Shown piece after piece: positions 16,601 through 57,200 of a stretch of 64,000 bases of DNA. Made by a program: the position numbers and the translations under genes. The stretch comes from Tubiluchus corallicola (lineage: Eukaryota; Animalia; Priapulida), in contig JAQGDQ010002372.1 of the NCBI GenBank assembly GCA_030141605.1, positions 761,694-825,693 of the forward strand, given 5' to 3'. Under the pieces are notes generated by a model. The model did no database searches, was not told the DNA's origin, and saw only the letters and a list, made by a program, of their open reading frames with translations. Every line of letters begins with the position of its first letter. The stretch's first letter is position 1.

Positions 16601-17758
16601 GGCTAAGAAGTGCAGGGCCAAATTAGAAAATTATTAGTGGAGCTGTTTGCCCCACTAATGATGCAGAACAATATAAACAGTTTGGACATATTTAACAAAA
16701 CAAACTATATTCCAAGCGTTATGTTATATAACCTCATTAACAGCACTGTTTATGTTTTGAGTGTTTGAATATCATCATCAAATTAGCAAAATTAAAATCC
16801 AATGACAATCTAACTAATGCATATAGGGTTTTTACCATTTACTTTTTTAAAAGGTAAATTGCAAGAATAAACTGAAATTATAAAACAAATGAACAAACAA
16901 TCAGCAAAAAACATTGTAATATAGGTGATATGTGAGGAAAGACTGAATAGTTTCACTCCTTCACAGTATCAAGAAACTTCATGCACATTGGACACTCATT
17001 AATTCATCATAGCATCCTCCACTCGGGCGTGTGCACAGGGCCCCCTTTTGGCGCAGAGCCCATTTTGAACAAATGTGTCTATTTGACTTAAAACCAGTCT
17101 TGATAAACAGTTATTCAAAGTGGTTACTTCTAATAAAAAAGATTATTGCTAACGTGAATGGATCTAACAAATGCATTTTAGTTTTACACAACCTTGTTTA
17201 GTGACTGCAGAACTTCAATGAATCTGAAAGTTTTAATCACATGTTATGTTATTGCCATCTCTTATAGAAAACTATTGCTTTAATGCCATTTTGATAAAAC
17301 TACTGTAATAAAATTTGTTAATATTTAGGTTTGTTCACTCAGCATTCAGAGCAGGATAGCAATATCTCAGCTACTCATTGAACTAGAAGAATATGATGTA
17401 AGTTTTTTCTGAAATGCTTTTATCTACATGCCTAATTATGATATAAGTAAAACAAAGTTTTCTTTATTGTAAATAAAAACAATGTAATTAACTAAGCTTT
17501 TTAATTTCAGAAAGCAAATGAAGTCTTAGATCTTCTTGTTGATGAAGATGATGAAATTGCAATCGTAAGTTTTGATTTTAATTTTCTTGTTCGTAGATTG
17601 GACCAGTTACTTTTGTTTGTCATTTAGATTATCACAACTTTTTAAAAGAAATATGCATTTTTTCTGTGCAGGTTTGGTATTTACTGGGTTGGCTGAATTA
17701 CTTGAAAGGTTCTGACTATTATGGAAATGCAAAATTTTATTTAAATAAGGCAAAAAAG
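10602..17758 (+). CDS. ACL4: TPR-repeat assembly chaperone of Rpl4 (Acl4-like), 10 coding exons, 335 aa read; terminal exon not found
   Basis: GT-AG exons 10602-10659, 11371-11468, 12182-12328, 12923-13075, 13749-13858, 14313-14436, 15060-15164, 17329-17397, 17511-17564 and 17672-17758 splice in frame. They give TPR helices (AQKFCHRALEIEPDNLKVLE; YLNRAVSLSPDEGHTKFLCLGQ; IEKAIETDPGNPEA) and Acl4 motifs AYCSVAEIYMTDCCFEENAE, LSLWLP and LVDEDDEIAIVWYLLGW. The gene ends at an open phase-0 donor (AAG|GTAAGT) with no stop codon. Confidence 0.9.
15218..15380. mobile_element. Degenerate hAT-like non-autonomous element end with CAAGTC subterminal repeats
   Basis: Begins CAGTGATGTAG and is followed by repeated CAAGTC/CAAGTT units. 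The other end was not identified. Confidence 0.35.
16593..17102. mobile_element. Degenerate hAT-like MITE in an Acl4 intron
   Basis: GC-rich ends (TAGGCCGGGGCTAAG...GCAGGGCC and GCAGAGCCC...CTTAAAACCAGTCTTG) form a weak inverted pair around an AT-rich core. Confidence 0.35.
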
Positions 17759-19458
17759 GTAAGTAACACATTGTTAATGTTATGCTGGCACATTACATAG
17801 TGTAGCATGTAAATTTTATGCTGGCAGATTACATAGTGTAGCAATCATAGCAGTTATATAAGAGCATGCAATGTTATATAACTGCATAAACTAGTGATCT
17901 TGAAACTTTGAAACTGGTCCAAATGTCAGTGGAAATGTCAGCAAAATATTGTAAAAATTTTTTAACAACTTTATCATTTGCCTCCACCTTTTACTGGTAT
18001 ACCTATGTGTGTCATGTAATTTGTTGGAAATATGAAAAGCCATGGTTTTACTTTTTTGGTTTATTCCCTAATGTATGGAAAAATTGAGTAGTCTGCCAGC
18101 AAAAATGGGATGATAATAACAATTTTTGCTGGACAGTAAAGGTTGTAAAACAGTTGGTTTGGTGTCAGCATACTTACCAGTCACTCTTCATGATCAGATT
18201 TTTAATATCAGTATATCATTTTCCTAAAATTAATGTGCACAGCTAGGAGTCACTCAACATTGGAAACAGTTTGAGAAACTTACAGCATGTTTTATCTTTT
18301 CTTTGTACATTATTGTGGGCATTTTCTTTGAAATTTGTGTGATTTCATTATCAAAACTATGATTTTAACTGTCAAATTTTTCTTAAACTGTTGTTGACCT
18401 TTGGCACAAGGTGATTTGCAGGCAAAACTACAGACAAATGTGTTACAAAGAAACATCTCCTCATTTTTTCAACTTCATTTATGTACAAGATAACAGTCAG
18501 AAATAAAAGGATCATTCAAAATAGGTGACATGTGAAAAGCTGTTTACAAACATTTTTAACAGACAATTTGTAACAGATGCATTATGGGATTCCCCACTAT
18601 TCAGTTAGCTCATGTCGAGTAAAAATAAATAACTACATGCATGCAATACTTTGCATGTCCTGACTTTCTAGCTTATTCATATATATTTTAGTAAAGTTAA
18701 AGGAAGTTACTTGAAAATGATACATTGTGAAGCGTCACAGCCTGCTAATGCCCTATATGAGTGGCTCATTTAGAATAAGTAAGGTGCCATTTCTGTAGAA
18801 AAATGGAAACATAGTCCCACAAATGGGAAAAATTGAGCAGTATAATAATGCAAGGCAGTTATCATTATGCAAGACAACTGTCATATTCATATGACTATAT
18901 GCTTTGCTGAAACAAACATTGTAAAATAGACAATTAAATAATTTTAGCTTGTGAAGATCATCAACTGCCTTAACATTGTTTGACCAATGTTAGCAAAAAT
19001 GGTAGTATTAAAAACTCATATACAGCAACAAGTAAAAGCATTGCCATATTGGCTACATACCTCGTTAGGATCATGCTTGTTTTATTAGGCCACAAGTCGA
19101 TAAACATTTATATGTTCATTTACAAGTACATTAAATGCACTTGAGTGGTTCACTTTAAACCTCAAATGTAACACCAGTTCATGTTCTTGTCTACTGTGTT
19201 ACCTGTCAATTATTTTGCCCATTATGGTATCTGTTATGGAAGTTTTAAAAGACTCCACATCTTATCTATTATTATAAGAAATTTTTGAACATTCATTGCT
19301 TCATAAGCGTGATAACACTTTCTGCACCACATTACCTGTCTATAAAATAACAGAACACTACTCACAATACAACAGTATTATTTACAAACAAATTTACACT
19401 TTGTCTTTTATAAAAAGACACTAACTTCACAATAATACCAAACAGTCTAAATGCAGCA

Positions 19459-22053
19459 TTATACCGAGGTGACAATTGCTGTTGTTTCCGAGTTATCTAA
19501 GTGCTTCTTTGTTTCACTAGAGTGGATGGGTGGTGGTGGTGGGGGAGGAACAACAGACATAAAATCTCTTTCTTTTTTACTAACTGTCCTGCTTTTTAGC
19601 ACGCACACATAAGCACACAGAATGATTACTAAAACGGCACACATTCCCAATGAACTTGCTAGTATTATGATGATTAAGAAATGCTCATTTTCTATTCCTG
19701 TGCACACAGAAGCACTGTGATCACTGTTCTTTTTATCACTATTGGGAGTGTCTGTTTCAAAATGCTTGTTGTCATAGAAACCATTGTTCATTGAACTAGT
19801 GCACACAAATGACGACGGCTGTAAGCACATAATACACTTATTCATTAAATATGGCGGTCCATAACACGTGATACTGTTTAGTTCATCTATATCAGCAAGG
19901 CTGCTGCGCGATTTATTTTTCCACAACTCTAACCATTCACGCAACCATTTTATTTGACAGTCACAAATCCAAGGGTTCTTATTTATCCTTAAAGTCTTGA
20001 TGCCAAGTGCATGTGTTTTTGTCAGCACATCTGTGTCCATGCGCATAATCCGATTATGGCTGAGATCTAACCAGCTCAACATCTGCAGTTTTTTAAACAG
20101 CTGACCTTTAATAGTAGAAATATTGTTATAGCCAAGATCGAGCTGTTGTAATGTTGGAATGTCATTAAATGCACTGTCTGCTATATCTGTTATTGTGTTA
20201 TTTGCTAGCGATAAATGTCTGAAAGACTTCATGATCTGAAAACTACCATTTTCAATAACTTTTATCTGGTTGTGACTGATATTTATCACAATAACTTCGC
20301 TCAAGTTATAAAAACTATTCACTTGTATGTCGCTAATGTTGTTGTGAGATAAATCAAGGCTCTGTAAACTAGATAAATTCGAAAAAGTCCATGCTTGAAT
20401 CTTTTCTATGCGGTTGAAAGATAAATTAATAGCTGTTATAGAACTAGTAAATGGTCCACCTTGAAATGCCATTGGGTCAACAGTGCTGATATTGTTTCCT
20501 TCGAGGTGAATGTTCAGCAAACTCTTCATATTACAGAAAGAGTTATCTGGCAATCGGTATACGTTGTTGTTTTCCATCTGAAGGCTTTGCAAAGCGGTCA
20601 TATTTATAAAAGCTTCTTTTGGGAAAATACTAATGTGATTATTTCTAAGTACAAGGTGCTGAAGACTCTTTTCAACCCCAAGGAAGGCTTTTGAGCTGAT
20701 GTGATCGATTTTATTATTGCCTAAAGTGAGTATCCTTAGTGAACGGAGAGTAAAAAATGATTCGTCTGGTATCCATCGTATCTGATTATCTTGTAGAGAT
20801 AAGCTCCATAAATTAGTAAATCCATAGAGTGCTGATACTGGAATTTCTGTCAGCAAGTTTCCTTCCAAGTTAAGCGTTCCTGGGTTTTCTTTAAATTCCT
20901 CTAAGCTATTGGGTGGAATGTTGATATTTTGTATTTCATTGTTACCTAAATTAAGCACATGCAGTGATCTTAAGTTAGCTATTACTGTATACGGAAATTG
21001 ACTAATACGGTTACGTGAGAGATGTAGATAGACGAGGCTGTCTTCCAGCCCATTTAGTGCCCCATCAGATATGTTACTGATTTCATTAGCATCCAAGTTT
21101 AGGTTCATTAGATTGGGAAGATTGCGAAAACTGTCATTAGGTATGGATGTTATTTCGTTCGCCCCCAGTACTAAATACTGCAGTTGGTACATATTGAGTG
21201 CTTCTTTTGGTATCTCTTTTAACTTGTTACTGTGCAGATATAGCAATGTAACATTATCTAGACCGGAAAAGCCATGCTCTTCTATTGTGGTTACCTGATT
21301 ATAAGCAATGTTGAGATGCTCTAATTCAATGAGGCTGCTAAATGCTTGGTTTTGGATGGTTGTAATGTAATTATGAGATAACTTGAGTATAGCAAGTCTG
21401 TCTAAATGGCAAAATGCATTCGAAGTGATGTTCATTAGGTTATTGTTCCGTAAATCTAACTCTTGCAGTGCATCTAACCCTTTAAAGGCATTGTGAGCTA
21501 TGCTGTTTATGGAATTTGAATTTAATTTGAGCTGTGTCATTGACGGCAAAGAACTAAATGCATAATTGTGGAGCTTCGTGATCATGTTGTAACCAAGGTC
21601 TAGTTTTTTCAGATTGTGCAAACCTTCGAATACTGCAGATGGAACTTGCGCCATGTTGTTTTCTTTCAGTATCAGCTCTAATAAATAGTCTCTAGATTCT
21701 AAAAATGCTTCTGCTGCAATCGTTTCCAAGTTGTTATTTACAATGTGAAGCTCCTTTATTTTGAGGTGGGAAAGTGTTGGCTGAGGAATAGTGCTGATTT
21801 GATTGTACTCTATCACTAGTTTGGTGATGAAATTATCTTTGTTTACACTTTGCAGTGCTTCGTCGATGCTTTCCAAATTGCTGTTTTCACAGTGGATGTT
21901 AAGTGGATTGGTGCTGGTGCACCAACAAACACTCGTCTTCCTTGTCTCCAGAGGACACAGTTGTGTAGATACCTGGTTTATTAAAGAACAACCAACGTAT
22001 GCATGAAGAAGTTGATAAAACAGCCATAGCAATTTTTCCTGCTTCCCAGCCAT
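19459..22053 (-). CDS. Single-pass leucine-rich-repeat cell-surface protein (chaoptin/slit-type ectodomain, no TIR), single coding exon, ~864 aa
   Basis: ORF 19459-22095. A strong acceptor (TTTTTTGTTGGTTTTTGCAG|ACAATG at 22058-22056) makes the ATG at 22053 the likely start. Domain order: hydrophobic signal-like N-terminus, LRRNT (CP...C-W-C), ~25 LxxLxLxxN repeats, LRRCT (NPWICDC...C..P), TM helix (FLIIIILASSLGMCAVLVIILCAYVCVL), short tail with PPPPPPP and C-terminal TSV. Confidence 0.93.
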   Translation of the reverse strand: MAGKQEKLLWLFYQLLHAYVGCSLINQVSTQLCPLETRKTSVCWCTSTNPLNIHCENSNLESIDEALQSVNKDNFITKLVIEYNQISTIPQPTLSHLKIKELHIVNNNLETIAAEAFLESRDYLLELILKENNMAQVPSAVFEGLHNLKKLDLGYNMITKLHNYAFSSLPSMTQLKLNSNSINSIAHNAFKGLDALQELDLRNNNLMNITSNAFCHLDRLAILKLSHNYITTIQNQAFSSLIELEHLNIAYNQVTTIEEHGFSGLDNVTLLYLHSNKLKEIPKEALNMYQLQYLVLGANEITSIPNDSFRNLPNLMNLNLDANEISNISDGALNGLEDSLVYLHLSRNRISQFPYTVIANLRSLHVLNLGNNEIQNINIPPNSLEEFKENPGTLNLEGNLLTEIPVSALYGFTNLWSLSLQDNQIRWIPDESFFTLRSLRILTLGNNKIDHISSKAFLGVEKSLQHLVLRNNHISIFPKEAFINMTALQSLQMENNNVYRLPDNSFCNMKSLLNIHLEGNNISTVDPMAFQGGPFTSSITAINLSFNRIEKIQAWTFSNLSSLQSLDLSHNNISDIQVNSFYNLSEVIVINISHNQIKVIENGSFQIMKSFRHLSLANNTITDIADSAFNDIPTLQQLDLGYNNISTIKGQLFKKLQMLSWLDLSHNRIMRMDTDVLTKTHALGIKTLRINKNPWICDCQIKWLREWLELWKNKSRSSLADIDELNSITCYGPPYLMNKCIMCLQPSSFVCTSSMNNGFYDNKHFETDTPNSDKKNSDHSASVCTGIENEHFLIIIILASSLGMCAVLVIILCAYVCVLKSRTVSKKERDFMSVVPPPPPPPIHSSETKKHLDNSETTAIVTSV

Positions 22054-24989
22054 TGTCTGCAAAAACCAACAAAAAACATTTACTGATTTAGCCATTATTT
22101 TTGATCAATAGATGCTTTTGCCAATACAATTCTCAAATTGACATTTTCAAAATCGTATCATCTTCAGTGAACAAATTACATTCTTTTAGTTGGCAGTAAT
22201 GCCGTCACAAGAATTGATCAGAAGCTAATTAATGTTGTCGCTGGACTGAAAATTATATTTGAGCACCAATGCATCAAAAACTGTGCTTTTCACAACACCT
22301 TTCTGATAACTCCTTGTGTGTGAATTCAGTAATGAAGGCAATTTGCATATTGAAAGCATAATAATAATGTGAATAATCACGTTCCTCCACTCTACAACGA
22401 ATTTGTGAGGCTCGTTATAGTAAAATCACGCGGCTGCGAACATAAAGCTTCTTATGAACACACAAACTGCAAGCAGTATATATTCTTCTATACAAAGATA
22501 CTACCTGTTTAAAATGTATAAGTGACAGAAAGCTGATTATCCAGTGCATTACAGTAGAAATTAGCTGACAAAACAACAAACATTTTTTTTATTTTCAGTC
22601 AGTACTTAAACTGTTCAGCTCATTGCACAACTGTTGACTGCCTTACAAAATTACTAAATTTTATGTATAATTTTGCACAGTGACAATGCATAATAGATAG
22701 GCAGCTGGTTATTTTAAATAAGCCATGTTAGGTCAAAGCTACAGTGTTTCATTTCATTCTAGGAGTTTTAGAAGTCCATACACATATTTTACCCAGATCT
22801 CATGGGTGACTGACGCAGATCAATATGAAATTTTCTGAACAGCAAAACATCTGCGTAACCCTTTATGTGTCACTGCTTATTACAACTCTTCTTCTTTGGC
22901 CATGTTTACCTTCTTGGGCTTTGTAAATCAGGACTCTTGAAAAGCAGTCCCATCTATACAGCAGTTGAAAGTGTAACGTCTCTGAAAGCGTAAATCCAGA
23001 TAAATTTGTATAATGGTTTTGGCCTTTTATTATTTTTAAATTAAGAACGTAGGTTGACGGTAATAGACGTTCCTATAGTTTGACTTTTGTGATATCGTAG
23101 TTTTATTTTCAGTGATATCTGTTTTTGAGATAGCTGCAGTATCGATAAAGAAACCTCAATTAGACAGATATTTAAAAGCAGAGAAATTCAGGCACGTTTG
23201 TTTTTACCAAGCTTTCATCCAACTATATACGAACGCAATATTTCTAAATTACTTCTCAAACTTTGATGTTATTCTCGTACGCATCTATTTACTGACTTGA
23301 TTAAGACAGCAAAAGTTCTCCGAAATTCTGAGTGGCTTTTGTTATTGCAGGCTTAGTTTGCATTGTTTCTGAAATAGCTTTTAAAAGTCTGTGAATTGTG
23401 CCCTTTTAGTATCAAAGTATGTTGTATTAGGACCTATAAATACGTGGTAGATTCTGAGCCAAATTGAGGAATATCTGTGACATCTTACACTCACAAAATC
23501 TTGCTTTAAAAATAATATTTTGTAGACAATCAATAATTTTCCTCATGATCTGGACGTTCTTCTTAGTTACATATACCAAGTACTTTTATTCTGATATAAT
23601 GATATTTTATGTGGTTAATTAGTGATTGTTATGAGTCATTTATCATTAATTACTTGATCAAAAAATCACATCTAAGATTCATTGAAGTGGCAAACTTTAT
23701 TTTAATTTATTTAATATGGTGTTTACGTTCAAATAACTGGGAATTTAAGTGTGAGTCTGTGCCGTGTGAAACTCTCGGTAGTCTGACTTGCGTTGATAAA
23801 ACCATTTGAAAATCTGTCATGCCTAATATGATATCATTATGTTAGTGAAGTTACTGACCATTTTGCTCACAACTTCCTTAAACTGAAAAATACTGTAGCA
23901 CCATCGTTATTAAGGACTGAACTTTTTATCACACTGCTATTGGCTTATTGGCAAAACCGATATCAATCAAAATTATGCTGCTTTAAATGGCTCAATATCC
24001 TTGTATTTCTCATTGCTATTTTTTCTTCTGTCTTGCTAAAAGCTTCAGTTGCATTCTTCTTTCACTCTGATTCTGATGCGACACCCGCCGTTAAATTATA
24101 TTGTCTCGGCTGGCGAACTATCGTTATGAATTTCATAAAGGCACCGGCGAAATTTCGCTCTACAGTCGCTAGCTTGATTTGCAGCTGACACACGAAAATG
24201 AAATCTCCTTTGCTGACAAATTAAAACGCGTTTCTATTATGCCGTAGGTAACTGACACTGCGCATCTCAGTAGCTTCAGCTGCATTGTGAAACTAGGCTC
24301 AATTTATGTGGCAGTTAATTAGCTTTCACGAATTTTTCCCAATAGAAAACGCATAGGAAACACAAAGCCCGATATTCTGGCTTCTAATTAGAAATTGTTT
24401 ATTGCTCACTTTAATAGGAATGAGAGTCTGTAAATTACTCACTGGTGAGCTCTACTGCTAACTGTTATTAAAGCTGGTTGTAATACAAATAAGCTCAGTT
24501 CAATCTGTGTCGCGGTAATTACCCTTGGATGACCATTGGCTTGTCCTTGTTAGGTCGACTAAATTGTCTGCACAAGGTGGATCAATATAGTAAATTCACA
24601 TTGACCCCAATTTATCGTCTGTTGTACAGGAAGCCAGCCTGCTAGTACTTTGACTGGTTTCAGTTTAATGTCAATACTGTTTTGAAATGGCTTCACTTCC
24701 TTCTTTCTATTTGTCCTCCGAACTGGCATGCGCCTGAAAATTCTCTCTGATCTCAAAAACGTTGCGGATTGGCAGAATGAATTGTTTAGATTATACATAT
24801 GATATACTCTGCAGAGCATGGAGCTCAACTGAACAGACGACATTGCTGAAATTGTCTTTCTTTTCAGTCCATTAAACCGTTCGATAACCAATTGTTTTCA
24901 ATACGTAAACGATTCAATTTAATACCCATTTTTCTGCGAATTTTAGTACTTACAAAACGAATTTTTAGTAGCTTCGCTATGCTTGAAAG

Positions 24990-25800
24990 CAGGGCCAGCT
25001 ATACCACTAGGGAAATTAGGCACTTGCCCAGGATGCCAAATTTTTTGGGGCGCCAAATTCTGGAAGTAATTCTTAAATTTTTTAGATTAGTTTTAGCATA
25101 AGTAATTGTATATATTATACTAATGTACTATACTATACTAATATTATACTAATATAACATAGTGTGTGTATAACATAAATGCACAACGTTTTAACTTGCT
25201 GAAACAAACTGCTTGTGTTATACTCCTGTCGAAATATATAGACGCCAATATGAACTTGTCTTCTTGCAGCAAAATACTTTCCATTTTTGCTTTACCTGCC
25301 TTCTTAAGATTACATTATTCAACGTTTTATTGTAGACACCATTAGCATGTTAACCCGCTTTTGCGTACAGTGTACATTGTACGCATACTGTGTGGCAGCA
25401 GAGAAAGTAACGACTCTTCATTTTATAAAAAAATTTCTTGCAAAAGCGCATCTAATTATGACAAATAAATCTATAAAAATAGAAGCTTTCAGGGCCATAA
25501 TACGGGAAAAACAAGGTAAAAAAGCTGGTGAACATTGAACGGCAAAAGATTCGTCAAAGAACTATTTGCAATCAGACAGAGTTATGGCTGTGAAGATGAT
25601 GAAACTAGTAATTTGGTGTATGAAAAAGAAGTTATTGTTTCAAAAATTTTCTGGTGAAAAGATCGAGCGCATAGTCAAGAGTATGTACACGAACAATATG
25701 CAGCAGAAATTGCAATGGACTCATAAATTCAACTTGAAATGAAATCGACACAAGCTGTAGATAGATAATTGACTACAGTTAATTAGTACACTTAGTAAAC
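24990..25800 (+). mobile_element. Decayed hAT (Tip100-like) transposon 5' part
   Basis: Starts CAGGGCCAGC, followed by TAGGCACTTGCCCAGG/GGGGCGCCAAA subterminal motifs. ~25483 translates KLSGP*YGKNKVKKLVNIERQK, resembling the basic KLSG N-terminus of hAT transposases. No right TIR was found. Confidence 0.45.
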
Positions 25801-26319
25801 TAGCTATTGGACAAAAAGCTGCGCATTCAATTTCTCGTTTTGTTATCGTCATTTGATGTATTTTAAGATTATTAATGGTTATCTGTAAATTAATTTCTCG
25901 GGTAAAGCAGCCATGATGTTCGGGACAGGGTGCTTAGTCCCGTATCTTCGTTGATGGGACACACACTCAGACTGAATGTAACTTACCTAATATAGATAAT
26001 TAACACACTTTGCATGAATGTAAATGACATATATTACGAAAAAATAAGATGATCTGAATTTGGTCCATGGTACAAGGGTGCCGATGACGTCGTCACTGCC
26101 CCTGGCGTACAACTTAGACACAAAATTCTTGTAGCAAATGGCCGATTTCTTATTGGTCCATAATACATTTCGTAACATTTTGTGGCTTCGCTTGCAAGTT
26201 AGGTACAAATAATTTATTTTGCGAACTGGCTAAAGGGTACTGATGACGTAATTTGGTCACTTCGTGTGTTCCTAGATCATATCATTAATCATTTTACCAA
26301 ATGAAAGCGCACATAACAC

Positions 26320-26880: not shown

Positions 26881-26999
26881 AAATTTGGCCTTAACAGATC
26901 AGACTAAAAGTTGTTTTAGTAAGTTAGAACGCATTTATCCTATTAGAAGAAGCTAAGATCGATTAAACTGTTTGGTCTAAACCTAGAGCATTGAACATA

Positions 27000-43020: not shown

Positions 43021-46000
43021 TGTGGTATATGACCAACAAGGCCAGCCAAAATACGTTTTACAGAAACCACATCAGTTTGCGTGCACATTCAAGAGTAAAC
43101 AGCACATTGCATCATTACATCAGATGACTGCATAATATTGGATAACTTCTTTTCGTTACTAAGCGTTATATAACTTAGATATAGTTCACTTATATAATTA
43201 TTTCAAACGTTACGTGCTACTGCGTGTTTTGAACAATGAAATAAAAATATTTGTCTTCTACAACGTTACAGGTTTCACAAAGACGATTCCTAAACTGCGT
43301 CCGCTAGGTTCTAAGTTTATGATTTTATGTCTTTAATATTTTTATCATTTAATAAGGAAGATTCGAATACAAACTCGGACTTGTTGATAAAAGTGCAATT
43401 TAGACATATTTGTTAGAGATTGTCGTCAGGTTATTCAAAAGTTAGCTTTAACTCATCCTTCAGCAAGACAGACAGTATTAGAATAAAGCGCTATTGAGTC
43501 AGCATTTAGCAGTTGATCCAAATTTATCCTATTTAACATCAATTTCGACGACCTGTACCAAAGAACATTTAAAGTTTTGCTAAAGTGGTATCTTGGTTGC
43601 ATAGTCGTGTTTGTGGAAAAGAAATACCCGAAGCCAATATTTAACAACTCTACAAGAAATATCTAAATTTATCTGATATCTTCCTAATGCTCCAACCATG
43701 GCTGGAGTAGGAGTTGTCAGCACCTAAAATTGCTTTATAATATTTAAGAAAAGGGTTTCAAGAACAGCAAAATATTTCATACCACAGATTTCACATCCAT
43801 AACATAGGATGGGTTTGGCATATATGTTAAAGAAAGGTATTTGCAAAGTTGGCTTCAAAATACCCAAATGTTTTTGATTTACTCAGTAAAGAAAATACTA
43901 CTTCGTTGCCTTGCGAGGCAGGATAATTTACAGATTCATTAAATTAATCATTTGGATTAAAATATACGCCAATGCATTCGTGCTCGACATATTGTTTTAT
44001 TAATGTGCCGTAGCAAAAGAAATCCTGTTGGTGATTCAACAAAAGTACTCTTTTCAAATATTAAAATTTCAATCTCACTGGATTTGACAGTTTAGACTCC
44101 ATTTTCTACAATGGCTGTTCAGTAGCTTTAACTGATGTAGCAAACCCTTCTTAGTTACAATAATTAAAACGAGATCATCTGTAAACATGTCATTAATTAG
44201 TATTATGCCATCAGAATCTTGTACATTTTTTATAGACACTCATCTAAATCAATAAAATACAATAAAAACAGCATGAGTGACAGAGTACAGCATTAAAGTA
44301 CACCAAATTCAACCAAAAAATACTCAATTAAACCAGGATCAGCTAACACAACTTCGTGTATGTGTAAATGCAGCTGAGCAGCATGCAATTTCCTTGATAT
44401 TGGCCTTTTTCTTAAACAGTTTTGTCGTTGTTTTCTTTTGTAATAAAAATAGCTAACTGGACATCTCTATTATCTGTATTTAATTGAAATTTACGCATAC
44501 TTTATTTTTTAATTTTCTTTTTGGGACTGTACGTTCATAATCGAGCAATTTTTTAAAAAATTTTTGCATTATGCCCGGATTGGAAAATTTTCTGCTGTAC
44601 TTATTTAATACCAGCTGCTACAGCTGGAAAAATAATTTCTTATACGCCAGATACAGTACTTAAGGTGCTATACTTACTACCTGATTTTATATTTGACAAT
44701 TTTGGATTGGCGTTGTTTCATTGCTTGGAAAATATGTTTTAATAATTATTGGCCAGAGGGTTGAAGTCGGGCTTGAGCATTGTCCCACACAATTGTTTTA
44801 TCCAACGGACACATATTTTTTCTGCTCCTCATATTACATCTCTTGTGCTTGTGTATTTTCATTTTTTCAGCAAACATAAACAGAAACATAAAAGAGAAAA
44901 ATCTACATGCATATCAATAAAATTTTGGTACAGAATGTTGAAGACAATAACATACAGTTAATTGCTGAACAGCCTGTCGGCTGACGATAAATAAATCTCC
45001 CGGTATTTTCACTATTGCCAATTCTACCCTTTAAAATGCTAAATCTTGCTTCACAGGTGCAAAATTCCATAAGTTGCATGACAAAGCTCAGCAAGTTGCC
45101 GGCCTTGTGTATTAGTAATTTTATCCTCGTTAAACCTATCCGGGAACAAATTTACGTCATACAAATGAAAATGAGGATATGGAATTGTGGTGAAGTTTTG
45201 CTCACTAGCAGTTTCTTCATCTAAAATGAAATCATTCGAATTTGCTGTTTGTTTAGTTATTGAAATCACCACTGATGACATCATTAGGTAACTGCAATAC
45301 AGTAGATCTGGTGTAGGATTTACTACTTAGAATTTATGCAAATTAAGCAAAATATAACATTTTTAGGTAATTCAGACGAGTTGAATTTGAACCTCGCAAT
45401 GTTTGGATGCGTGGTTTTGACAATTTCATAGATTGAACTTAAACCAGAACAATGAAGCAATTCAAATCCACCTGCAATTCTTTACTTTTCACGTTCTGAA
45501 CCAAAAACATTTGTATCATAACCCGATTTGTTAAACGACGCACCGTCTGATAATCAAGTTTCTACTAAGCCAACGAAGTCAGGCTTACATATTAGTCCGT
45601 GGGACAAAAACCATGGTCTTGTAACAAGGTCTGTTATTGGGTACCCTTTATACCGTTATCTTGGTTGGTGTCCACTGCTGCCTGTCCCGACTTTCAACAG
45701 TTAAAGTTAAACTAGTTAAAGTTTCGATCCAAGTTCAATCAAAACACCTCTATAAAGTGACGTGCATTAAGATCCATTGCTCTAAGTTAGTTTATTCCTA
45801 CTATGATTGTGTCCACACTATTTTTGTTCTAGCTTCTAACTTAACTTATTACAAATCACTTCCTACTCTTCCATGTTTTTCACATGCAGTGCAGAGTCTT
45901 GAATCAATCCAATCACTGAGATTTTCAAACGCCATTTTTCTCGAAAAATTCTTGCTACAAAATCTCTGCAGCGGTCTGTCGTTTGTCATTAATAATGCCT

Positions 46001-46053
46001 CGTCACATTGAAAATGTTATTACAGGCCCTTATTAATGTCGCCATTCTCTTTT
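43021..46053 (-). mobile_element. Decayed, internally deleted non-LTR retrotransposon (RTE-X-like) with endonuclease, RT and C-terminal remnants
   Basis: Minus-strand fragments: PDFVGLVET*L (~45570) and NTQGRQLAELC / ILKGRIG...GRFIY...GCSAIN (44950-45130) are AP endonuclease motifs; MFTDDLVLI...KKGLLHQL...CRKWSL (~44190-44090) is RT FADD-like; RLCETCNVVED (~43270) is the zinc-finger remnant. The element ends in a (TAAAC)n tail. Confidence 0.82.
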
Positions 46054-46973
46054 CACTGGAGCGTCTGCGTGTTTGCATAATGTCAGCAAACGAACTGAAC
46101 GTGTTTTTCAAGGTGTGCTTCATTGTGTTTGATTTTTAAGCATTAAATATTACACAAATAGTTTTCTAATAACTGAGAAAATCAAAATTGTTAAACACGT
46201 TTACATTCAGGGAATATAGCCGTTACAATACAGTAAACAGTATGGCGAACCTTATGATTGCAAAGACTTATTTTGTGATTTTTTTTGTATAATATGGAGG
46301 TAACAAAAAATACTACTTTTGTTCACCTTAGATGCAACTGAATTGGATCACTTGGTCCATTTATTAACTTTACTAGAACGAATCTTTTCTGAAGTAAAAT
46401 TATTAGTCATTAGTAAATATAGCTTATTCATACAGAAAAGTAAAAATTTTTTGCAATAACAGTATTCCTTGGGACAAAAGTCAATTTGTGCTGTTTGCCT
46501 GTTCATCAACCATTTGTTTTCCTTAGAAGACGATGGTCTTGTAACAAGGTCTGTTATTGAGTACCCTTTATACCGTTATCTTGGTTGGTGTCCACTGCTG
46601 CCTGTCCCGACTTTCAACAGTTAAAGTTAAACTAGTTAAAGTTTCGATCCAAGTTCAATCAAAACACCTCTATAAAGTGACGTGCATTAAGATCCATTGC
46701 TCTAAGTTAGTTTATTCCTACTATGATTGTGTCCACACTATTTTTGTTCTAGCTTCTAACTTAACTTATTACATATCACTTCCTACTCTTCCATGTTTTT
46801 CACATGCAGTGCAGAGTCTTGAATCAATCCAATCACTGAGATTTTCAAACGCTATTTTTCTCGAAAAATACTTGCTACAAAATCTCTGCAGCGGTCTGTC
46901 GTTTGTCATTAATAATGCCTCGTCACATTGAAAATGTTATTATAGGCCCTTATTAATGTCGCCATTCTCTTTT
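45613..46973. repeat. Near-identical 441-bp direct duplication (45613-46053 and 46533-46973)
   Basis: The two copies are offset by 920 bp and I count 5 substitutions. This explains the twin 124-aa ORFs in the ORF track. Confidence 0.95.
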
Positions 46974-47662: not shown

Positions 47663-47754
<92 letters not shown>

Positions 47755-47790
47755 CGTACGTAAAAGAGAATGGCGACATATATATATATA
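47663..47790. repeat. (CT)n(AT)n microsatellite interrupted by a 29-bp insert
   Basis: CT tract, then TA tract to 47750, unique 29 bp at 47751-47779, then TA resumes. Confidence 0.95.
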
Positions 47791-49279
47791 AACTTGGGAC
47801 AAACCCACAAAGCATAATTCTTGCTGTTATTAATCTATAAGTTACTTTCACAATTTGTATTGAAAAGCATAAGATGTTGTGTCCTTCCGTTGGCAGAACG
47901 GTATATTACGCGACCACTCGCGCTGAGCTTTGTCTGTTCTTGCTGTTTGACACCTCAGCATTGTCTATAGTTGACGTAATGGGCATATGATGATGTCCTC
48001 ACTGCGAGCAATCTCGCATCATCAACTTCAGCAACAAGAAATTGTCAAAATTGTGCATTCGTTCAGTATTTGACAGCGTCGGTGTTTCGGCACTCGCTAT
48101 TTTTTAACTAAATGACGATTATACAAATCGGGGTAAACGCGCACCATTATTTATATGATGTTAATTTATCAAAGCGTTAACAAATTATATCATCTAAAAA
48201 TGTCTGACTTTAAATGAAATGCACTGTATGTTTGCCATTCTTCGCTCATCCTATATAATAAATAACATTTTGAATTTTCATGCAACACTTCGTGTTTGGG
48301 GAGAATTGCATCATTGCAGTACAGATTTAAACGTATGGGTTTTGCTTACTTTTGCACTGTACGAATACCGAATCCGATTCAAATGCGAAATGCATTTGAC
48401 TTACATTGTATGTTTTTCATGCAAAATTTGCCTTGTCGTTGAGTATACAGTAGAACACAATGTATAGCGTTGCCGTAAGAAAAGGTAAATTTCTTATTTA
48501 AGTAGCAAAACTGTAGCAAGCGTGGGCTGTGTGATTTTGGATAACAAATTTCTAAACTTCAAGCTTGACTAAGGAACCCAGTTATTACACGTAAAGCCCT
48601 GGTTCCTTTACTCTAAAATCAGAATAGATAGATTCGTTTTTCTCATTTTAAAGCTCATTCTACCTCCCTTCTCTCTTCCTGTCTATAAAATGTGCTTGAA
48701 TCACCTGGGCTGCATTTCGTAATATTACTGTGAGCTTGCTGTGAAAATTATCGCGCAAATTGCAACATTAATCAATAAGAAGCATCTCCGATCATATAAT
48801 TATGCTCATGGTAATGAATAAATTGGATTCGCGGCACCATTTAACGCATGATTATGAAAACACCGCTGCTTTTTCTGGACAAATTTCGCTTCTGAGTTTT
48901 TCAGATAAGACATTTTCTTGGTAACAGTGTCATTTGTCCGTTTTCAAAAAGTGTGACAAAAACGTGACGAGTCTGCCCACCTATACGTATAGGAAAGAAT
49001 TATTGTAATTGTCTAATTTACTTTTACTATAATTTCAATAAGTATGTTTTGATCTGCCGTAGACCTAAATTAAATGGCAGTTCGTGTTTTCGTGAATAAT
49101 TATATTAGAACTAGAGAAACATTTCATGTTATTGCAATTATCCATGTGAATGATTAATTAATCTAACGGAAGGAGGAGAATTTAGGCTAACTTTTTTACT
49201 CACATTCATAATACATATTTTGCAAAATACAAATATATGTACACACTAGTCACAGTGTAGTGCTAGTGTTGTAATGTAG

Positions 49280-49870
49280 TTCTATAACGCATTACTAGCA
49301 TTGTACAGTATGCTGCAGAATGAGCCTTTTCACAATTCCAACGATTGATGATGATCGTGAAAAGGTCAAAGGTTAAGTGTACCAGACAACGCATTTGTGT
49401 ACACTTGACAATGCCTCGCAACCCCATGCTGTTGTAAAAGTAATTAAGAAAAGGGACGAATGCTAGCTATAGAACCTTATCTAGTTCATTTTTACTTCAC
49501 GGGCAGACTAATGCATAATTAAGTAAAGTCCACTTGCTTTCCCCACATGTCACGTGACGGCTACAGACCTATAGCAACTGCGCGTGCGCACAACGAAACT
49601 GCGAAAAGGCTTATTATGCAATACAATGTAGTATTACGTACAGTGGCTGTTATAGTTCACTAACGCATTCGGCATTACTAGTCAGTTGTATTACATTGTA
49701 TAGTATGTTATTGCATTAAACAGGATAATGTGGCACTACTGTTATAATATATTTCAGTAACGCATTACTAGGCTATTACATTATGCAGTATGCAACTGAA
49801 TCATCTAGTTTAATATATACTACAATAATTGTTACAGTTCAGTAACGCGTTACCAGCCTATTGCATTATA
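49280..49870. repeat. Degenerate dispersed/tandem repeat with core TAACGCATTACTAG
   Basis: The core recurs at ~49286, ~49661, ~49758 and ~49843 with similar flanks (…CATT…CAGTATG). Confidence 0.55.
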
Positions 49871-52312
49871 TTCTTTGGTTTCACGTGCGCTGAAACAACA
49901 TGTTATAAATACGTTCTCGGCGTTTCTCTTTTCCTTACGTACGCCATCACTTCCCGTTGCATTTTAAGACTGACAAATTGATTTATCATTTTATTGCTTT
50001 ATTGTGTTACTGAATTACTGAATAATGCATTACTCTCGCTGCTAGGTCTATAAGTTCGTGAAGCCATTTAATTAATACTCACCACAGTGTAATTATTTTC
50101 ATTTTGTTGACAGAATAATTAATTTCTATGCGGTTGCTATCCAGTTCTCCAAGAAGACTATTACTTTATTGTATTTTCAATGTCAGTTCATCTGAGTGGC
50201 TGGTGCTATTTTTCGTAATAGTATGCATACTTGTACATAAATATGACTTTTGTAATTTTAAGCTTACAACAGTGTTGCGGGCCTTACAGATGTACGAACC
50301 GTGAGGTCACACCAGGCCCGCAGCTTTAAGTGAAATAAATAAATCAAAAGAAAAGATTTTTATTGCTTATATGTACCTGCAATCATTGCATTAGCCGCTT
50401 ATGTTTATTTTTTATGTTTAAGTCTTCTATGTTTTAGTGTCCGCATATTTGTTTTTTTGTATACTTATAAACATTGTGTATTGCTGAACATTTTAACTGA
50501 AATTCCTAAGGCCTCTTATGATATAGTGTAAGTATTTGACAATGATAACAAGATAATAAGCAGTGATAGTAAAGGCTAGCTGGCCAGCTTAATTTTTATG
50601 CATTTACTAACATAAGAATAAATTGTCTCCTAAAATAAAAATGCTGTAGTTGAAAGTTTCAATACTAGGAATACGTGCATGTTAGGGGCTGGTGTGATTT
50701 TAAAAATATATGGTTGGTCATTTTTTCGGAAAGCCTGGAAGAAATAAATTACATCAGTTTACAGTTTTCGAAATTAGCTAAGTTAGTTCATTAAATTCCG
50801 CCCTCCAGTAACACAAGTTAAATTGACCATTAAAAAAGTTATCAAGTGACAGCTGTGTCAGAGTCCTAGTAACGTAGTGGCCCTCCGAAGTCACCTTGAT
50901 ACACCTCTTGTCTTCGTATTTCCCCCAACTGTTTCCATTTCAAATACAGGGCTTAAATTGAGAGTACGATAAAAAGGTTTCGGGTGAGGATTGCCAAAGA
51001 TTCCTGTAACAAGTGATTCCTTTAACTTAATGGCTTAGTTTAACATCTAGCAATACACAACGTTTTTCATTTCATTTAGAGGGGTTAAACTGAAAGTACG
51101 ATAAAAAAAAGTTTTCGAGTGAGGATTGTAAGACAAGTGATTTCTTTAACATAATCGGTTCCCGCTGAGGTCACCTTGATACACTTCGTCTCTTCGAATT
51201 TTCCCTAAATTTTCTGCCGAGCCTGATTAAATTTACAGGGCAAACCTCTTTCCAAATTAAGCTCCACACTCACGCACGTAGTTCACATCTGCCATTTCTC
51301 ACAACGCACGCGGAATTAGCAAGCGTGCATGGAAAAGTGATGTCACCTCTTAAGCAATTAATAATTAAATGAATAAGCTTGAATTTCCCTCACGGGATTC
51401 TTAAAAGTGCTTACTCACTTACTTATCATTTGTAAGAGATAAGCTTCGCTGCAACTGTTTGCGCTGCGTTTGCATCTCGTGCATGTTACATTCGAGAATA
51501 TTGTTGCTTCATACTGCTTTGTTGATTAGTTGGCTTCTTAAATTGGCAAATTGACATTGACATTACTTTGGGTGGTACCTACTGCTGCTAATAATGGTTC
51601 ACAAATTTTACGTAGCTTTTTTCACGTAAAATTGGACGTGTAGGCCAAAAATTCATTATTTTTCGTATAACGAGGTCGCCCTTGCGCGTGTAACGTGAAT
51701 TGCATAATTCCAAAGTGAAAAGCATATCGGGATAAAGTCAAATTAAAATAATATACATATATTTGTCGAATTATTGTTGCTATCTGGAAAAGTTTCAGAT
51801 ATATTATCTTACATAACGTGTATTGTCTGTAGATTAATTGAAATGTTTTTAAGATTTTGTTTTAACATTACTGTAACCCGTATTTTCAAAAGTTTTAGTC
51901 TAAATTACACCTTCATTGTTGTTTAACTTACTTAAACTGTATTGATATAGCAAATATTGTTTTAATTTACATTCTGAAGATGCCAAACGATTGCCGAAAT
52001 TTTGAAGATATAAATTCCGATTGTATCAATGAATGTAATTATATGTAATTAGTCAACATTTTCTACTTTGAACGAACTCACGTACAGGCAAAGAACTCTT
52101 TTCTTGTCAAAAATGGATATAACTGGATTTGATAGTCACTCTTCATATATAGTTAACTGCAGCTTGGGCAGCATGTGCGATAAAATTGAATTTTCGGCAA
52201 GAATTAGCGTATAATTGGTTTAGCAATGGTTTCAGTAAAAGGTGAAGCCGTAATAAGACTAATGGCTTCAGTTGCAGCTGCCATTACAGCAGTCACTGCT
52301 CAAATTCATGGC

Positions 52313-52504
52313 AGTGTCTTCAAGCATTGTCCATAGTAAAGTCAAATTCACGACGGTTGTGTGCTTCAAGCACTGTCCACAGTAGATTCATATTCACAAA
52401 TAACAAAGGTTGTGTGCTTCAAGCACTGTTCACGGTAAAGTCATATTCACAAATCACAATGATTGTGTGCTTCAAGCATTGTCCACAGCAGAGTCAAATT
52501 CACA
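52313..52504. repeat. Degenerate ~46-53-bp tandem repeat, 4 copies
   Basis: Unit GTGTGCTTCAAGCAYTGTCCACAGTARAGTCAWATTCAC… repeated four times. Confidence 0.85.
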
Positions 52505-52598
52505 TTGCTGTGAAAAACGGTGGTCTAGGAAACCTTACACTTTTACTGAGCATTTCGCTGTTTGTTGCAATGAAAAAGTCAGATTTATTGTCACTGAG

Positions 52599-52599
<1 letters not shown>

Positions 52600-52659
<60 letters not shown>
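52600..52659. repeat. (GAT)20 trinucleotide microsatellite
   Basis: Perfect GAT run; produces the poly-D, poly-M and poly-S ORFs in the track. Confidence 0.97.
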
Positions 52660-52660
<1 letters not shown>

Positions 52661-54291
52661 CCGCAGTTGTTATACTGCTATTGCCACTGCCTTTGCCCCC
52701 TACTACTGCTATTGCTCTCACTGTTACTGTTGGTACACCTCTGCTGGACTGGCAGTCCTGCTGTTTTGAGTCTTAGTGTTTGGTCCTCGTGTGTAATGAC
52801 CTGAATTTCTATTAGAAAAAATGTAGAAGCAAGCATGTTGTAGTAAAATTAACAGAGCTTAAGAAATCAAGAAATTTGCCAGTCATCCAAGAGCTTTCCT
52901 AAAAGACTCCCGTATGTCTAACAGGCAAAAGCAGTACTGTACCACACCTGATTAGGCCAATCATAAAATGCAAGGCTCTCAAATCAGAAATTGTAACAAA
53001 CTTTATGCTTATTGGCAACAAAAATAAATTTCAGTCTTCACCCATTTTTTTCAAACACAATTCATTTCAATATAAGTCATAATTAGATCAGCATTCATCG
53101 CAAAAGTGATCTCCTTTACTATATCAGCTAGTCGTATGTATGGTATGAACGTATTGTGAATTGGCTTCGTTGGCTCTATGCGACAAATCAAATATAGGAA
53201 TATACACTCAAGAGTATTTACTGAGCAAATATTAAGCATGGGCTGTATAACTGATCTCAATAATTGCTTTTGTCGTAAGGTTGTCAATTATCTCGGAAAA
53301 GAAAATGTTAACCAATATCACTGAAAAAGTGATCTGAAGAGATATAGGTTTCGGTTTACACTTATTGTCCTAAAATGGTCGTTGCAGGCTGAGCCTAACT
53401 GTAGGCAAATTTATACGATAGACGAATAGTTAAACCTAAGTAATTTATGAAAATGTAAAACATAATCAGTAACTTCTAAAAAAAATTCACGTCTTATGAA
53501 TACCGCAAAATGTCTTTTCACCACTACCCAATACTAGCAGATATTACAAGCGAAGCTTACTATAGTGACATCATTATGTAAATACAAAATACACACCGCA
53601 TTTTTTTAAGTAAAAAATTACTGAAAACGTCATTATCACTGCTTATTGCAACACGCATATGATCATACGGCGACATAAATTCCCGACATAGTTATAATTT
53701 TTATAAATATATTTCAGCAAGATAGAAATGTCATCTCGATTGCACAGAAGCTAAATTTTGACTTCAACACCTTGTAATCTGTACTTTGCAGTCTGTGTAG
53801 GGCATTGTGATTATTCGAGGTATGAAGCCGTGTCTACATTCCTGTTTCCGGTGACCTCGGGAAAAAGAGTTGAAAATAATAAGATAGCAACGCGTGACTG
53901 ACTGTCCCTTAAGCACAGCTCCAATTTAAGATATTCTGTTTGCTTAGAAGAAACCCTAGCTTTACTTACTGTCGCTATTGTAATATATCTATGATCAAAC
54001 ACAAAGCAGCTCAGCGTTTGACCACAGTTAGACATAACACAGTTCTAATCTGACACGTAGTTAGACATTAGTGTTCATGCTAAATCAAGCATACATAGAA
54101 TATACATGCCATATAGCATAATTTTACTTATTTGTTTGAAGTTTTACTTCAGCACTTTAGTATATTGGAAAGTTTATGTACATTCAATAATAATAATTGC
54201 TTCTGTTTTTGTGTGCATAATAAGTTTTGTAACATTGTATTATATTAATCATGATATTACGATGTTTATTCATTTTTTTAAATTTCTGCAG

Positions 54292-57200
54292 GTGCTCACA
54301 GTCATCAAGGAAAACCCAAATATTTGCAAGCAAATTCACCTGCCAGCACAGAGTGGAAACTCAACAGTATTGACTGCAATGCGCAGAGGATACACTAGAG
54401 ACACCTATATAGACTTAGTCCATCATATTCGAAGTATTCTGCCAGGTAACTGTTATTGTCTGTTCATAGGTTATTGTGTTATGTTACAGTGTCTTAATGG
54501 CAGTGTGGTTTATCATATCACATTCACAGTATGCTGGCCTAAAATCTGGACTATTGTGTTTCTTTCACAAATTTGTTAAGTAATATTAATTTGCTGTTAT
54601 ATATGTTCTTATATTCATTTTTAATCATAATTAAAACATATTTTGTTGTGAAATAAATGAGTTACTAATAATAACTAATAATAATAAATAATAATTATTT
54701 AAATTCACCAGCCTAGAACAATAATGATAGTAAAGTGGTTAGTCATTTCTAAAACAACTTTTGATAATTTTTTCCACAAATTCTTTTCGTTTTTGCAGAA
54801 CAAAATGACTTTATAGGAAAAAAACATTTATTAAGTTTTAAACGAACCGTTAAAGAACTCGTATGTGTGTGTGTTACTTCTTAACATGGCTTCAAATTTT
54901 GTAATCGTATGTGTGTGTTACTTCTTAACATGGCTTCAAATTTTGTAATCGTATGTGTGTGTGTTACTTCTTAACATGGCTTCAAATTTTGTAATCGTAT
55001 GTGTGTGTTACTTCTTAACATGGCTTCAAATTTTGTAATCGTATGTGTGAGTTACTTCTTAACATGGCTTCAAATTTTGTAATCGTATGTGTGTGTTACT
55101 TCTTAACATGGCTTCAAATTTTGTAATCGTATGTGAGTGTTACTTCTTAACATGGCTTCAAATTTTCTAATGTCTTTTTCAGGTGTTTTTTTATCAAGTG
55201 ACTTCATCTGTGGTTTTTGTAACGAGACTGAAGAGGCTCACGAAGACACGCTGTCGCTTATTCGGCTAGTCAAATACAATTTTTGCTACATGTTTCCATT
55301 TAGTTTGAGAAAGGTGGGTGAAAAAATGAAGAAAAACAGAGAAATGTAGAGATTGGCTAGAAGTATGAAGTGTTTTACGGTTGCCAACACCCGACCACTT
55401 AAGTATGACTGACTCGTAGTGTCACTTGTTTGGCAACTCGTTATCTTAATTTAGTGTTTATGAATTTATTTAAAAGCACTGATTAGCAGGGCCTATTTCA
55501 TGGGGCGGGGGAGTGGGGATACTTCCCTGGGCCCTCACCCTCCAGGGGGGCCTCACACCAAGGTAACATTTTTTTCTTTATGCGAACATACTGCCTCTTC
55601 TCTCTCTCTTGCCGCACGCGCGCCGTTTGCCAGTATTGACAAGTATTAAGGACTGGTCTTGAGAATAAAGCAGTTTTTCTTTCAACTGTTCTTTCCTTTA
55701 ACAACTGTATAACTCCATATTTTCTCTTCGAAAAAAATGCTTCTCCGGCGTTCTAGCAGTTCAAAAATTTTCTGCACGCCAACCATGATGGCACCCATGC
55801 CCCGGCGCTTCATGCCACCCCCCCCCCCCCAAGGGGGCCTCACATGCCCCACTTCCCCGGGCCTAGCTTAGGCTGAAATAGGCCCTGCTGATTGGCACCG
55901 ATTTGTGATGAAGATCGGGTGAGAAAAATGTGAGCAGAATTTCAAAGATTATTGTACAGGCATTACAGACATTTTCAGTTTTAATATTTTCTTGTAGAAG
56001 ACTCATGCATATCACAAGCTAGAAGACAACGTGCCGCAACACGTCAAGGTTCGTCGGATGCAGGAAATTCTTGATTGTTTTCGACAAGAAGCAGAGAAGT
56101 TGAATGCGCAGCTTGTTGGCTCTGAACAGCTGGTGTTAATTGAAGGAGTAAGTTGATTTTAGTAGGTGATTCAAAAAAAAATAAGAAAAACAAACCGTGG
56201 CTGCCTTAACCTAGAATGACCCAGAATTCTTTCATACATTAGCTTTATTCATTTTTTATTTTACGTAGTTAGTTAGTTAGCTAGTTATATTAGTTAGTTA
56301 GTCAGTCAGTTAGTCAGTTACTGTATATAGTTATGTACAAGTCGAATTTTTGGGAGGCGATTTTAAGGTGAAATTTTTGGGGTCGACTTATACTTACGAT
56401 ATGTTTTTTGACTTGTACCACCACTTTGCATTAGTTTACCCAGTTGCTGTGGTTGTGACTTGTACCACCACTTTGCATTAGTTTACTGTGATACACGCGT
56501 ATAGTGTGCTATTTTAAAATGTGCTGATGAAGTCTGTTGTTCTTTTACCAGACAAGTAAACGATCACAACAAGATTTATTCGGCAGAAATGACGGCGGTA
56601 CTAAAGTCATTGTACCTGACGTTGAGGTGCCCCTAGGAGTTTCCACTGAAATTCACAAACGACTAAAACCAGGAGATTATGTTGTAGTGCACGTAAGTGT
56701 TTTGTGAAATTTTTGTTGACAGTTAAGTAACATTAAACCTGTTCTGTTCTGAGCTAGAGAAACAGAGTTAATATTCATCTCTTGCTTACTGTTGAAGTTT
56801 GAACTTGTATCAGTAATTTATTGTTAAAAACTTGAACTTAAAAATTATTACTAAGAGTTGAAACTTTTCCCACTTAAACATTATCAGTGTTTTTGATCAA
56901 GCAGAAGACCTTTTATGGCATTTCATTAAAAAAAGAGCTTACATGTACCTCGCATAGGATATGAGAAAGAGCTTACATGTACCTCACATAGGATATGAGA
57001 AAGAGCTTACATGTACCTCGCATAGGATATGAGAAAGAGCTTACATGTACCTCGCATAGGATATGAGAAAGTGCTTACATGTACCTCGCATAGGATATGA
57101 GAAAGAGCTTACATGTACCTCGCATAGGATATGAGAAAGAGCTTACATGTACCTCGCATAGGATATGAGAAAGAGCTTACATGTACCTCACATAGGATAT

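What the first reader, a model, noticed from the sequence alone, without database searches (positions are those of the whole stretch)
17672..54445. Two same-strand half genes: Acl4-like has no visible last exon, CDK5RAP1 has no visible first half, and the free ends are in phase
Seen: Acl4 coding ends at a phase-0 donor (17758) with no stop. The next recognisable plus-strand coding exon is the phase-0 CDK5RAP1 exon at 54292, in mid radical-SAM domain. Reading both strands I found neither an Acl4-type acidic terminal exon nor the CDK5RAP1 N-terminal motifs (GCQMN, the CxxxCxxC cluster motif, FTSPHP). Splicing 17758 to 54292 would give an open TPR-(partial radical SAM)-TRAM chimera lacking the Fe-S cysteines. 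Inference, unresolved: (a) a real fusion transcript at a tandem-duplication or rearrangement junction; (b) interleaved genes with very long introns that host SWEET1, LRR and TDH; (c) an assembly or haplotype mis-join; (d) a divergent short Acl4 ending, e.g. the strong acceptor at 22598 giving SVLKLFSSLHNC*.
Basis: partly seen in the sequence, partly recalled or inferred. Interest (0 to 1): 0.75.

Follow-up and report, generated by a model that had tools for sequence, protein, structure and literature searches.

The report
False join between two housekeeping genes
The two half genes are in this sequence as described, but deep public DNA data, likely from the same animal, run on into other sequence on both sides of one point just before the second gene, so the apparent gene fusion is likely an assembly error rather than biology.

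Summary
Observation confirmed: the window holds Acl4 residues 1-334 of about 397 (ten exons, 10602-17758) and CDK5RAP1 residues 346-579 (five exons, 54292-58588); the other halves are absent. Both halves are intact, 88% identical to whole proteins of a close relative, and show no relaxation. The phase match means little: 11 of 14 donors here are phase 0. The deciding result is one unsupported join at 54169-54175, 117 nt before the first CDK5RAP1 exon. In the deep DNA run X1, which otherwise matches the window almost letter for letter, one full-depth contig leaves the window there for 4,541 other letters and another enters it with 77 other letters; they overlap by 7 nt. All other contig breaks between 9.5 and 54 kb lie at repeats under 1.3 kb. 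Depth says single copy, so no tandem duplication. Most likely a microhomology chimera built into the assembly dropped or displaced both missing halves. I could not read the missing DNA and no RNA holder was listed. The scan's earlier notes hold no matching finding. Verdict: artefact.

The parts
10602..17758 (+). Acl4-like (Rpl4 assembly chaperone, TPR) coding exons 1-10: 10602-10659, 11371-11468, 12182-12328, 12923-13075, 13749-13858, 14313-14436, 15060-15164, 17329-17397, 17511-17564, 17672-17758; residues 1-334 of about 397
   Evidence: open frame, GT-AG borders, 88% identity to P0121
17759..54175 (+). Likely the first 36.4 kb of a long last intron of Acl4; the last exon is not in it
   Evidence: no last exon; X1 contigs cover 33,497 of 36,417 bases, 7,599 of them inferred from one contig seen at both ends; breaks only at repeats
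19459..22095 (-). Intronless 878-codon leucine-rich-repeat gene with a predicted membrane segment near its end, antisense behind Acl4 exon 10
   Evidence: LRR_8 E 1.9e-110; one contig 16991-25607 holds Acl4 exons 8-10 and this gene; membrane segment judged by eye
22599..22637 (+).
   Evidence: not among the listed hits of the tail profile; 51 of 52 family members have 25 or more residues after this point
54169..54175 (.). Unsupported join: 7-nt overlap (AAAGTTT) where X1 record 7 leaves and X1 record 8 enters the window
   Evidence: table 8
54292..58588 (+). CDK5RAP1 last five coding exons: 54292-54445, 55183-55313, 55998-56147, 56552-56692, 58454-58588; residues 346-579 (end of radical-SAM domain and TRAM domain)

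Best explanation
The window contains one join, at 54169-54175, that deep DNA data likely from the same animal do not show, so the Acl4-CDK5RAP1 'fusion' is likely an assembly artefact and the animal likely has two ordinary whole genes. Shown: both halves are intact; X1 contigs continue into other sequence on both sides of the join at full depth; the two sides overlap by 7 nt. Inferred: a chimeric long read, formed by a template switch at the 7-nt match during library amplification or repair, was used by the assembler. It either deleted a segment of at least 4.6 kb that holds the Acl4 last exon and the CDK5RAP1 5' exons (neighbouring genes; my estimate 55% of this case) or joined two distant loci (45%). 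Acl4 likely has a long last intron that hosts the antisense LRR gene.
For: table 8: record 7 (6,078 nt, depth 180.7) fits 52699-54175 with letters 61-1537 only; record 8 (804 nt, depth 176.6) fits 54169-54895 from letter 78 only; neither has a mismatch in the fitted part. Heterozygous sites show 105.3 of 205.7, so about 180 is both haplotypes; a one-haplotype tail would give about 115. The other 12 long X1 contigs end at repeats or stretch ends with at most 38 unlaid letters inside the stretch. X1 long contigs differ from the window at 1 of 33,732 directly laid bases left of the join, while another sample (X3) shows many differences. The join is 117 nt before the first CDK5RAP1 exon, where a break that cuts this gene must fall (13 introns of 107-2164 nt; chance of an unrelated break within 800 nt about 1.7%). 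A 7-nt overlap has a chance of about 0.0008 and no repeat of 16 nt is at the join. Neither half is relaxed: derived changes window vs relative 7 vs 6 and 5 vs 7; 3 of 3 coding variants visible in the tables are silent. A close relative has both whole proteins. Amplification chimeras with 2-21 nt overlaps are documented (PMC1855051, passages).
Against: I could not read the unlaid tails, so it is not shown that they hold the missing exons. Contigs drop rare variants, so a minority allele with the join is not excluded. That X1 is the assembled animal is inferred from identity, not from a record. That the library was amplified is not known. A 7-nt overlap is also what a target-site duplication of an insertion looks like. 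In PMC1855051 direct-orientation chimeras were only 69 of 475. For the neighbouring-gene form: Acl4 and CDK5RAP1 lie on contigs of different length in 3 of 3 named species that I saw in both lists.
Confidence: 0.87

Rival explanations
1. The join is a real but rare allele: a microhomology-mediated deletion or rearrangement in some cells, or in a near-identical other individual, which could give an in-frame Acl4(1-334)-CDK5RAP1(346-579) transcript without any Fe-S cysteine, likely a null for both genes.
For: 7-nt overlap fits end-joining repair as well as an in-vitro switch. Both ends are phase 0 with good splice sites. Contigs hide minority variants (tool note).
Against: Full depth on both non-window continuations and no contig break at the join exclude a heterozygous allele in X1. 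No TPR plus radical-SAM/TRAM protein among the 120 listed of 361 hits or the 78 hits.
Confidence: 0.05
2. The missing DNA is an unrelated insertion with a 7-nt target-site duplication, and the two genes are truly interleaved on one strand (CDK5RAP1 5' part upstream of the window, Acl4 last exon downstream), made whole by very long introns or by trans-splicing.
For: 7-nt overlap resembles a target-site duplication; both halves are under constraint; no missing exon was seen because the tails could not be read; Acl4 does run at least 7.8 kb past exon 10 without a last exon on one contig.
Against: An unrelated indel would not be expected 117 nt from the cut gene's exon. The 4,541-nt tail is part of one contig at single-copy depth, unlike a recent multi-copy element. 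X1 would be homozygous for an insertion that an otherwise identical haplotype lacks.
Confidence: 0.04
3. The window is the junction of a tandem duplication with whole copies of both genes on either side.
For: The geometry (5' half of one gene before 3' half of another, same strand) is what such a junction gives.
Against: Depth over unique parts is 170-195, the same as single copies of repeats from elsewhere in the genome (about 167-230), whereas a true two-copy piece at 45.6-46.0 kb shows 372. Bins holding Acl4 exons 3 and 6 show exactly one contig's depth (169.8) at 85% likeness, so no diverged copy. The junction itself is not in X1.
Confidence: 0.01
4. This species' Acl4 has really lost the conserved last exon and ends with a short new exon (such as 22599-22637); the false join then explains only the CDK5RAP1 half. 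This can hold together with the best explanation.
For: A strong acceptor and a stop exist at 22598-22637; the nearest possible place for the normal last exon is more than 36 kb away, against introns of at most 2.2 kb elsewhere in the two genes.
Against: [quoted passage not shown]
Confidence: 0.05

Closest known systems
Amplification chimeras with short overlaps (Lasken and Stockwell 2007, PMC1855051, passages read; small-animal HiFi after amplification, PMC11660948, passages read)
   Same: Two genomic segments joined at a short exact match (2-21 nt there, 7 nt here) with no longer repeat.
   Different: Those were mostly inversions within 10 kb in an E. coli experiment; here the library type, the orientation of the true loci and their distance are unknown. 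PMC11660948 found few chimeric contigs in its assemblies.
CDK5RAP1 / MiaB tRNA methylthiotransferase (domain layout from PMC10702137, passages read)
   Same: The five exons are the end of the radical-SAM domain and the TRAM domain, 88% identical to a whole relative.
   Different: The N-terminal MTTase domain and the CxxxCxxC motif, which hold both Fe-S clusters, are not in the window.
Acl4, dedicated chaperone of Rpl4 (PMC5296656, passages read; animal proteins named 'probable assembly chaperone of rpl4')
   Same: TPR protein, 45-48% identical at the relative's level to chiton and brachiopod proteins.
   Different: The last 63 residues (conserved helix-like stretch and acidic tail) are not in the window. 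Function in animals is by annotation, not tested here.
Trans-spliced split genes of animals: Drosophila mod(mdg4) (PMC4387717, search listing and start of abstract only); C. elegans eri-6/7 (trans-splicing recalled; papers seen in listing only)
   Same: Would be the model if both halves had to be joined to far-away partners.
   Different: No RNA evidence here, and the DNA join that creates the puzzle is unsupported.

Membership tests
Assembly false join (chimera) | Deep DNA of the same source diverges from the assembly on both sides of one point | tested here: met
   table 8, records 7 and 8
Assembly false join (chimera) | Junction absent from raw reads or carried only by duplicate long reads | not testable with these tools
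   only contigs were served; contigs drop rare variants
Assembly false join (chimera) | Missing gene halves found in the true continuations | not testable with these tools
   no genome held; tails not printed
Repeat-collapse mis-join | Long shared repeat at the join | tested here: not met
   overlap is 7 nt; no 16-mer near the join recurs in the window; depth there is single-copy
Tandem-duplication fusion gene | Doubled depth or a second diverged copy of the exons | tested here: not met
Tandem-duplication fusion gene | Junction present in genomic DNA | tested here: not met
   (one deep run)
Tandem-duplication fusion gene | Spliced fusion RNA | not testable with these tools
   no RNA holder listed
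Interleaved or trans-spliced genes | Order of halves supported by continuous genomic DNA | tested here: not met
   continuity fails at 54169-54175
Interleaved or trans-spliced genes | Whole mRNAs from separated halves in this species | not testable with these tools
   no RNA holder listed
CDK5RAP1/MiaB methylthiotransferase | N-terminal MTTase (UPF0004) domain and CxxxCxxC motif | tested here: not met
   absent from the window; present in relative P0001
CDK5RAP1/MiaB methylthiotransferase | C-terminal radical-SAM part and TRAM domain | tested here: met
   window exons align to P0001 346-578, which includes TRAM 480-550; the single TRAM-region exon alone gave no Pfam hit
Acl4 | TPR array orthologous to 'assembly chaperone of rpl4' | tested here: met
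Acl4 | C-terminal conserved stretch and acidic tail | tested here: not met
   absent from the window
Pseudogene halves | Stops, frameshifts, lost splice sites or faster change | tested here: not met

The most novel reading that the evidence does not exclude
Two housekeeping genes, Acl4 and CDK5RAP1, are truly interleaved on the same strand after a block rearrangement, and each is made whole by skipping the other's exons or by trans-splicing; the unsupported join would then be only an unrelated insertion with a 7-nt target-site duplication.
Probability: 0.04. Interest if true: 0.8.

Novelty: not a real feature. Interest (0 to 1): 0.06.

Why it matters
As biology it does not matter: it is most likely an error in the assembly. 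In practice it flags one place (54169-54175) where annotation would make a false Acl4-CDK5RAP1 fusion or call two conserved genes broken, and it warns that other odd gene fusions in this assembly should be checked against read contigs. If the interleaved reading were true it would be a rare natural test of how the spliceosome keeps two same-strand genes apart.

Tried and rejected
No whole genome is held, so the missing exons could not be searched genome-wide. No RNA holder listed; the one possible RNA run X6 laid pieces only on repeats and on the LRR gene, none listed on the Acl4 or CDK5RAP1 exons; this is no evidence on expression. X3 and X5 were too thin at the join to list a piece across it. 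A scan of metagenome contigs with P0121 gave 10 loci at 26-43% identity, none close to this animal; I did not study them. The 447-nt near-identical duplicate at 45607/46527 was my first candidate for a mis-join; its doubled depth (372) shows a real two-copy piece and the flanking contigs have no foreign tails. The (TGA)n run at 52599-52660 reads as poly-Asp but is a microsatellite, not the acidic Acl4 tail. CpG depletion is low in 23-52.6 kb (0.84 against 0.30 over Acl4 and 0.58 over CDK5RAP1); it fits an unmethylated region upstream of the LRR gene but does not decide between readings. A shift from no variation left of the join to about 1% right of it hints at distant loci, but the first 727 nt right of the join are also invariant, so I gave it little weight. 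Earlier findings: 0 for the gene names in this genome, 0 near, 0 by words, 0 by P0121 sequence; the P0001 look-up returned unrelated MiaB notes from other genomes. Paper searches with no result: Acl4 with CDK5RAP1; interleaved genes, same strand, nested; chimeric reads, microhomology, ultra-low input, genome assembly.
Full report
The observation. The window is animal DNA, about 34% G+C, without any N. No whole genome is held. A search with the exon at 54292 found a 579-aa whole CDK5RAP1 of a close, unnamed relative (P0001, 88% on that exon), and a search with an Acl4 exon found a 397-aa whole Acl4-like protein of a close relative (P0121). With these as guides the window gives ten Acl4 exons (10602-17758, 335 codons, no stop, 295 of 334 identities to P0121 residues 1-334) and five CDK5RAP1 exons (54292-58588, 206 of 233 identities to P0001 residues 346-578), all with GT-AG borders. 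The missing halves are not in the window on either strand: 85 full-length CDK5RAP1 proteins and their profile found only those five exons, and neither P0121 nor a profile of the Acl4 tail found a last exon, while a profile built without P0121 scored P0121's own tail at 1.6e-10. The in-phase ends carry little weight, because 11 of the 14 donors in the two genes are phase 0.

The halves are not decaying. Against outgroups, derived changes in window and relative are 7 and 6 for CDK5RAP1 (220 columns, 84 outgroups) and 5 and 7 for Acl4 (328 columns, 51 outgroups). The three variants in the read tables that fall in these exons are all silent (3 of 3 visible; the tables showed only 40 rows each of 408 and 272). 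51 of 52 Acl4 family members keep 25 or more residues after the point where the window stops, and both Fe-S binding parts of CDK5RAP1 lie in the absent half (domain layout from PMC10702137, passages). Both facts suggest that whole, working genes exist in this animal.

Is the DNA continuous? Six public runs were listed, none on record as RNA. X1 is deep (about 183). Its long contigs differ from the window at 1 of 33,732 directly laid bases left of 54175, whereas another sample (X3) shows many differences, so X1 is likely the assembled animal or a clone of it (inference). Ten gaps between contigs are 43-1,242 nt and lie at microsatellites, high-depth repeats or a local duplicate. Depth equals that of single repeat copies from elsewhere in the genome, a real two-copy piece at 45.6-46.0 kb shows 372, and bins with Acl4 exons 3 and 6 show one contig only; a tandem duplication is therefore unlikely.

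The one exception decides the case. X1 record 7 (6,078 nt, depth 180.7) fits 52699-54175 and then has 4,541 letters that lie nowhere on the laid stretches. Record 8 (804 nt, depth 176.6) fits 54169-54895, including the first CDK5RAP1 exon, but its first 77 letters do not fit the window (table 8). Heterozygous sites nearby show 105.3 of 205.7, so about 180 stands for both haplotypes; had only one haplotype left the window, record 7 would average about 115 and would have been cut at the branch (the branch argument is from general knowledge of de Bruijn contigs). The two records overlap by 7 nt, with a chance of about 0.0008, and no longer repeat is there. The point is 117 nt before the exon at 54292, which is where a break that cuts CDK5RAP1 has to be; an unrelated break would fall within 800 nt of that exon about 1.7% of the time.

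Mechanism. Shown: the join is not in X1's contigs and has a 7-nt overlap. Inferred: a template switch at the short match made a chimeric molecule, and the assembler used it. Such overlaps of 2-21 nt mark most amplification chimeras (PMC1855051, passages), and amplification is used for small animals (PMC11660948, passages, which however found few chimeric contigs); whether this library was amplified I do not know. Two forms remain. A local deletion of at least 4.6 kb would remove the Acl4 last exon and the CDK5RAP1 5' exons in one event; at the exon density seen here (1,005 coding nt over 7.2 kb, 711 over 4.3 kb) these would need roughly 7-10 kb. A join of distant loci explains the picture equally; the two genes lie on different contigs in the three named species that I saw in both hit lists (Lingula anatina, Octopus bimaculoides, Ixodes hexagonus). 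I put these at 55 to 45. In both, Acl4 likely has a last intron of more than 36 kb with the intronless 878-codon LRR gene nested antisense, an ordinary kind of arrangement (recalled knowledge).

These leave about 5% for a real rare allele, 4% for true interleaving or trans-splicing, and 5% for a real short Acl4 ending (which can hold beside the false join).

Comparison and novelty. The parts are ordinary members of the Acl4 and CDK5RAP1 families, cut by the join. No TPR plus radical-SAM or TRAM protein appeared among the 120 listed of 361 hits or the 78 hits, and a full-text search for both gene names gave 0 papers. The scan's earlier notes hold nothing matching; one note calls this genome priapulid-like, which I did not test. 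Verdict: not a real feature; interest 0.06. No supplementary files were consulted.

Noticed in passing
window 19459-22095 (-): Intronless 878-codon LRR gene with a likely membrane segment and a proline run near the end, behind Acl4 exon 10 on one unbroken contig; the 30 kb upstream of it are gene-free and not CpG-depleted (0.84), like a regulatory region inside a long intron.
   Followed up: partly
window 9500-54895 versus 55256-56093: Run X1 shows almost no variation over the left 45 kb but at least 12 variant sites within about 900 nt further right, at the same total depth: a long run of homozygosity ends near here.
   Followed up: partly
window 45607-46053 and 46527-46973: 447-nt direct duplicate with 7 mismatches; read depth 372 on the collapsed piece supports a real recent two-copy duplication.
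   Followed up: yes
No intron, in a region where neighbours have many.
   Followed up: partly
window 6256-7173 (+): Broken frames that look like the end of a non-LTR retrotransposon reverse transcriptase (resemblance recalled, not tested).
   Followed up: no
window 16027-16260, 49319-49616, 55480-55890: Very high-copy short dispersed repeats (summed depth over 300,000 in X1), probably miniature mobile elements.
   Followed up: no
window 56932-58088, 54866-55171, 61327-61935: Minisatellites: 34 copies of 34 nt in the last CDK5RAP1 intron, 7 copies of 44 nt ending 11 nt before the exon at 55183, 6 copies of 102 nt.
   Followed up: no
window 2314-2490 (-): Exon of a SWEET/MtN3 sugar transporter (Pfam MtN3_slv E 5.5e-11).
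   Followed up: no
window 11469-11474: The donor after Acl4 exon 2 is a weak GTTTGT, yet the exon ends there by alignment to the relative.
   Followed up: no
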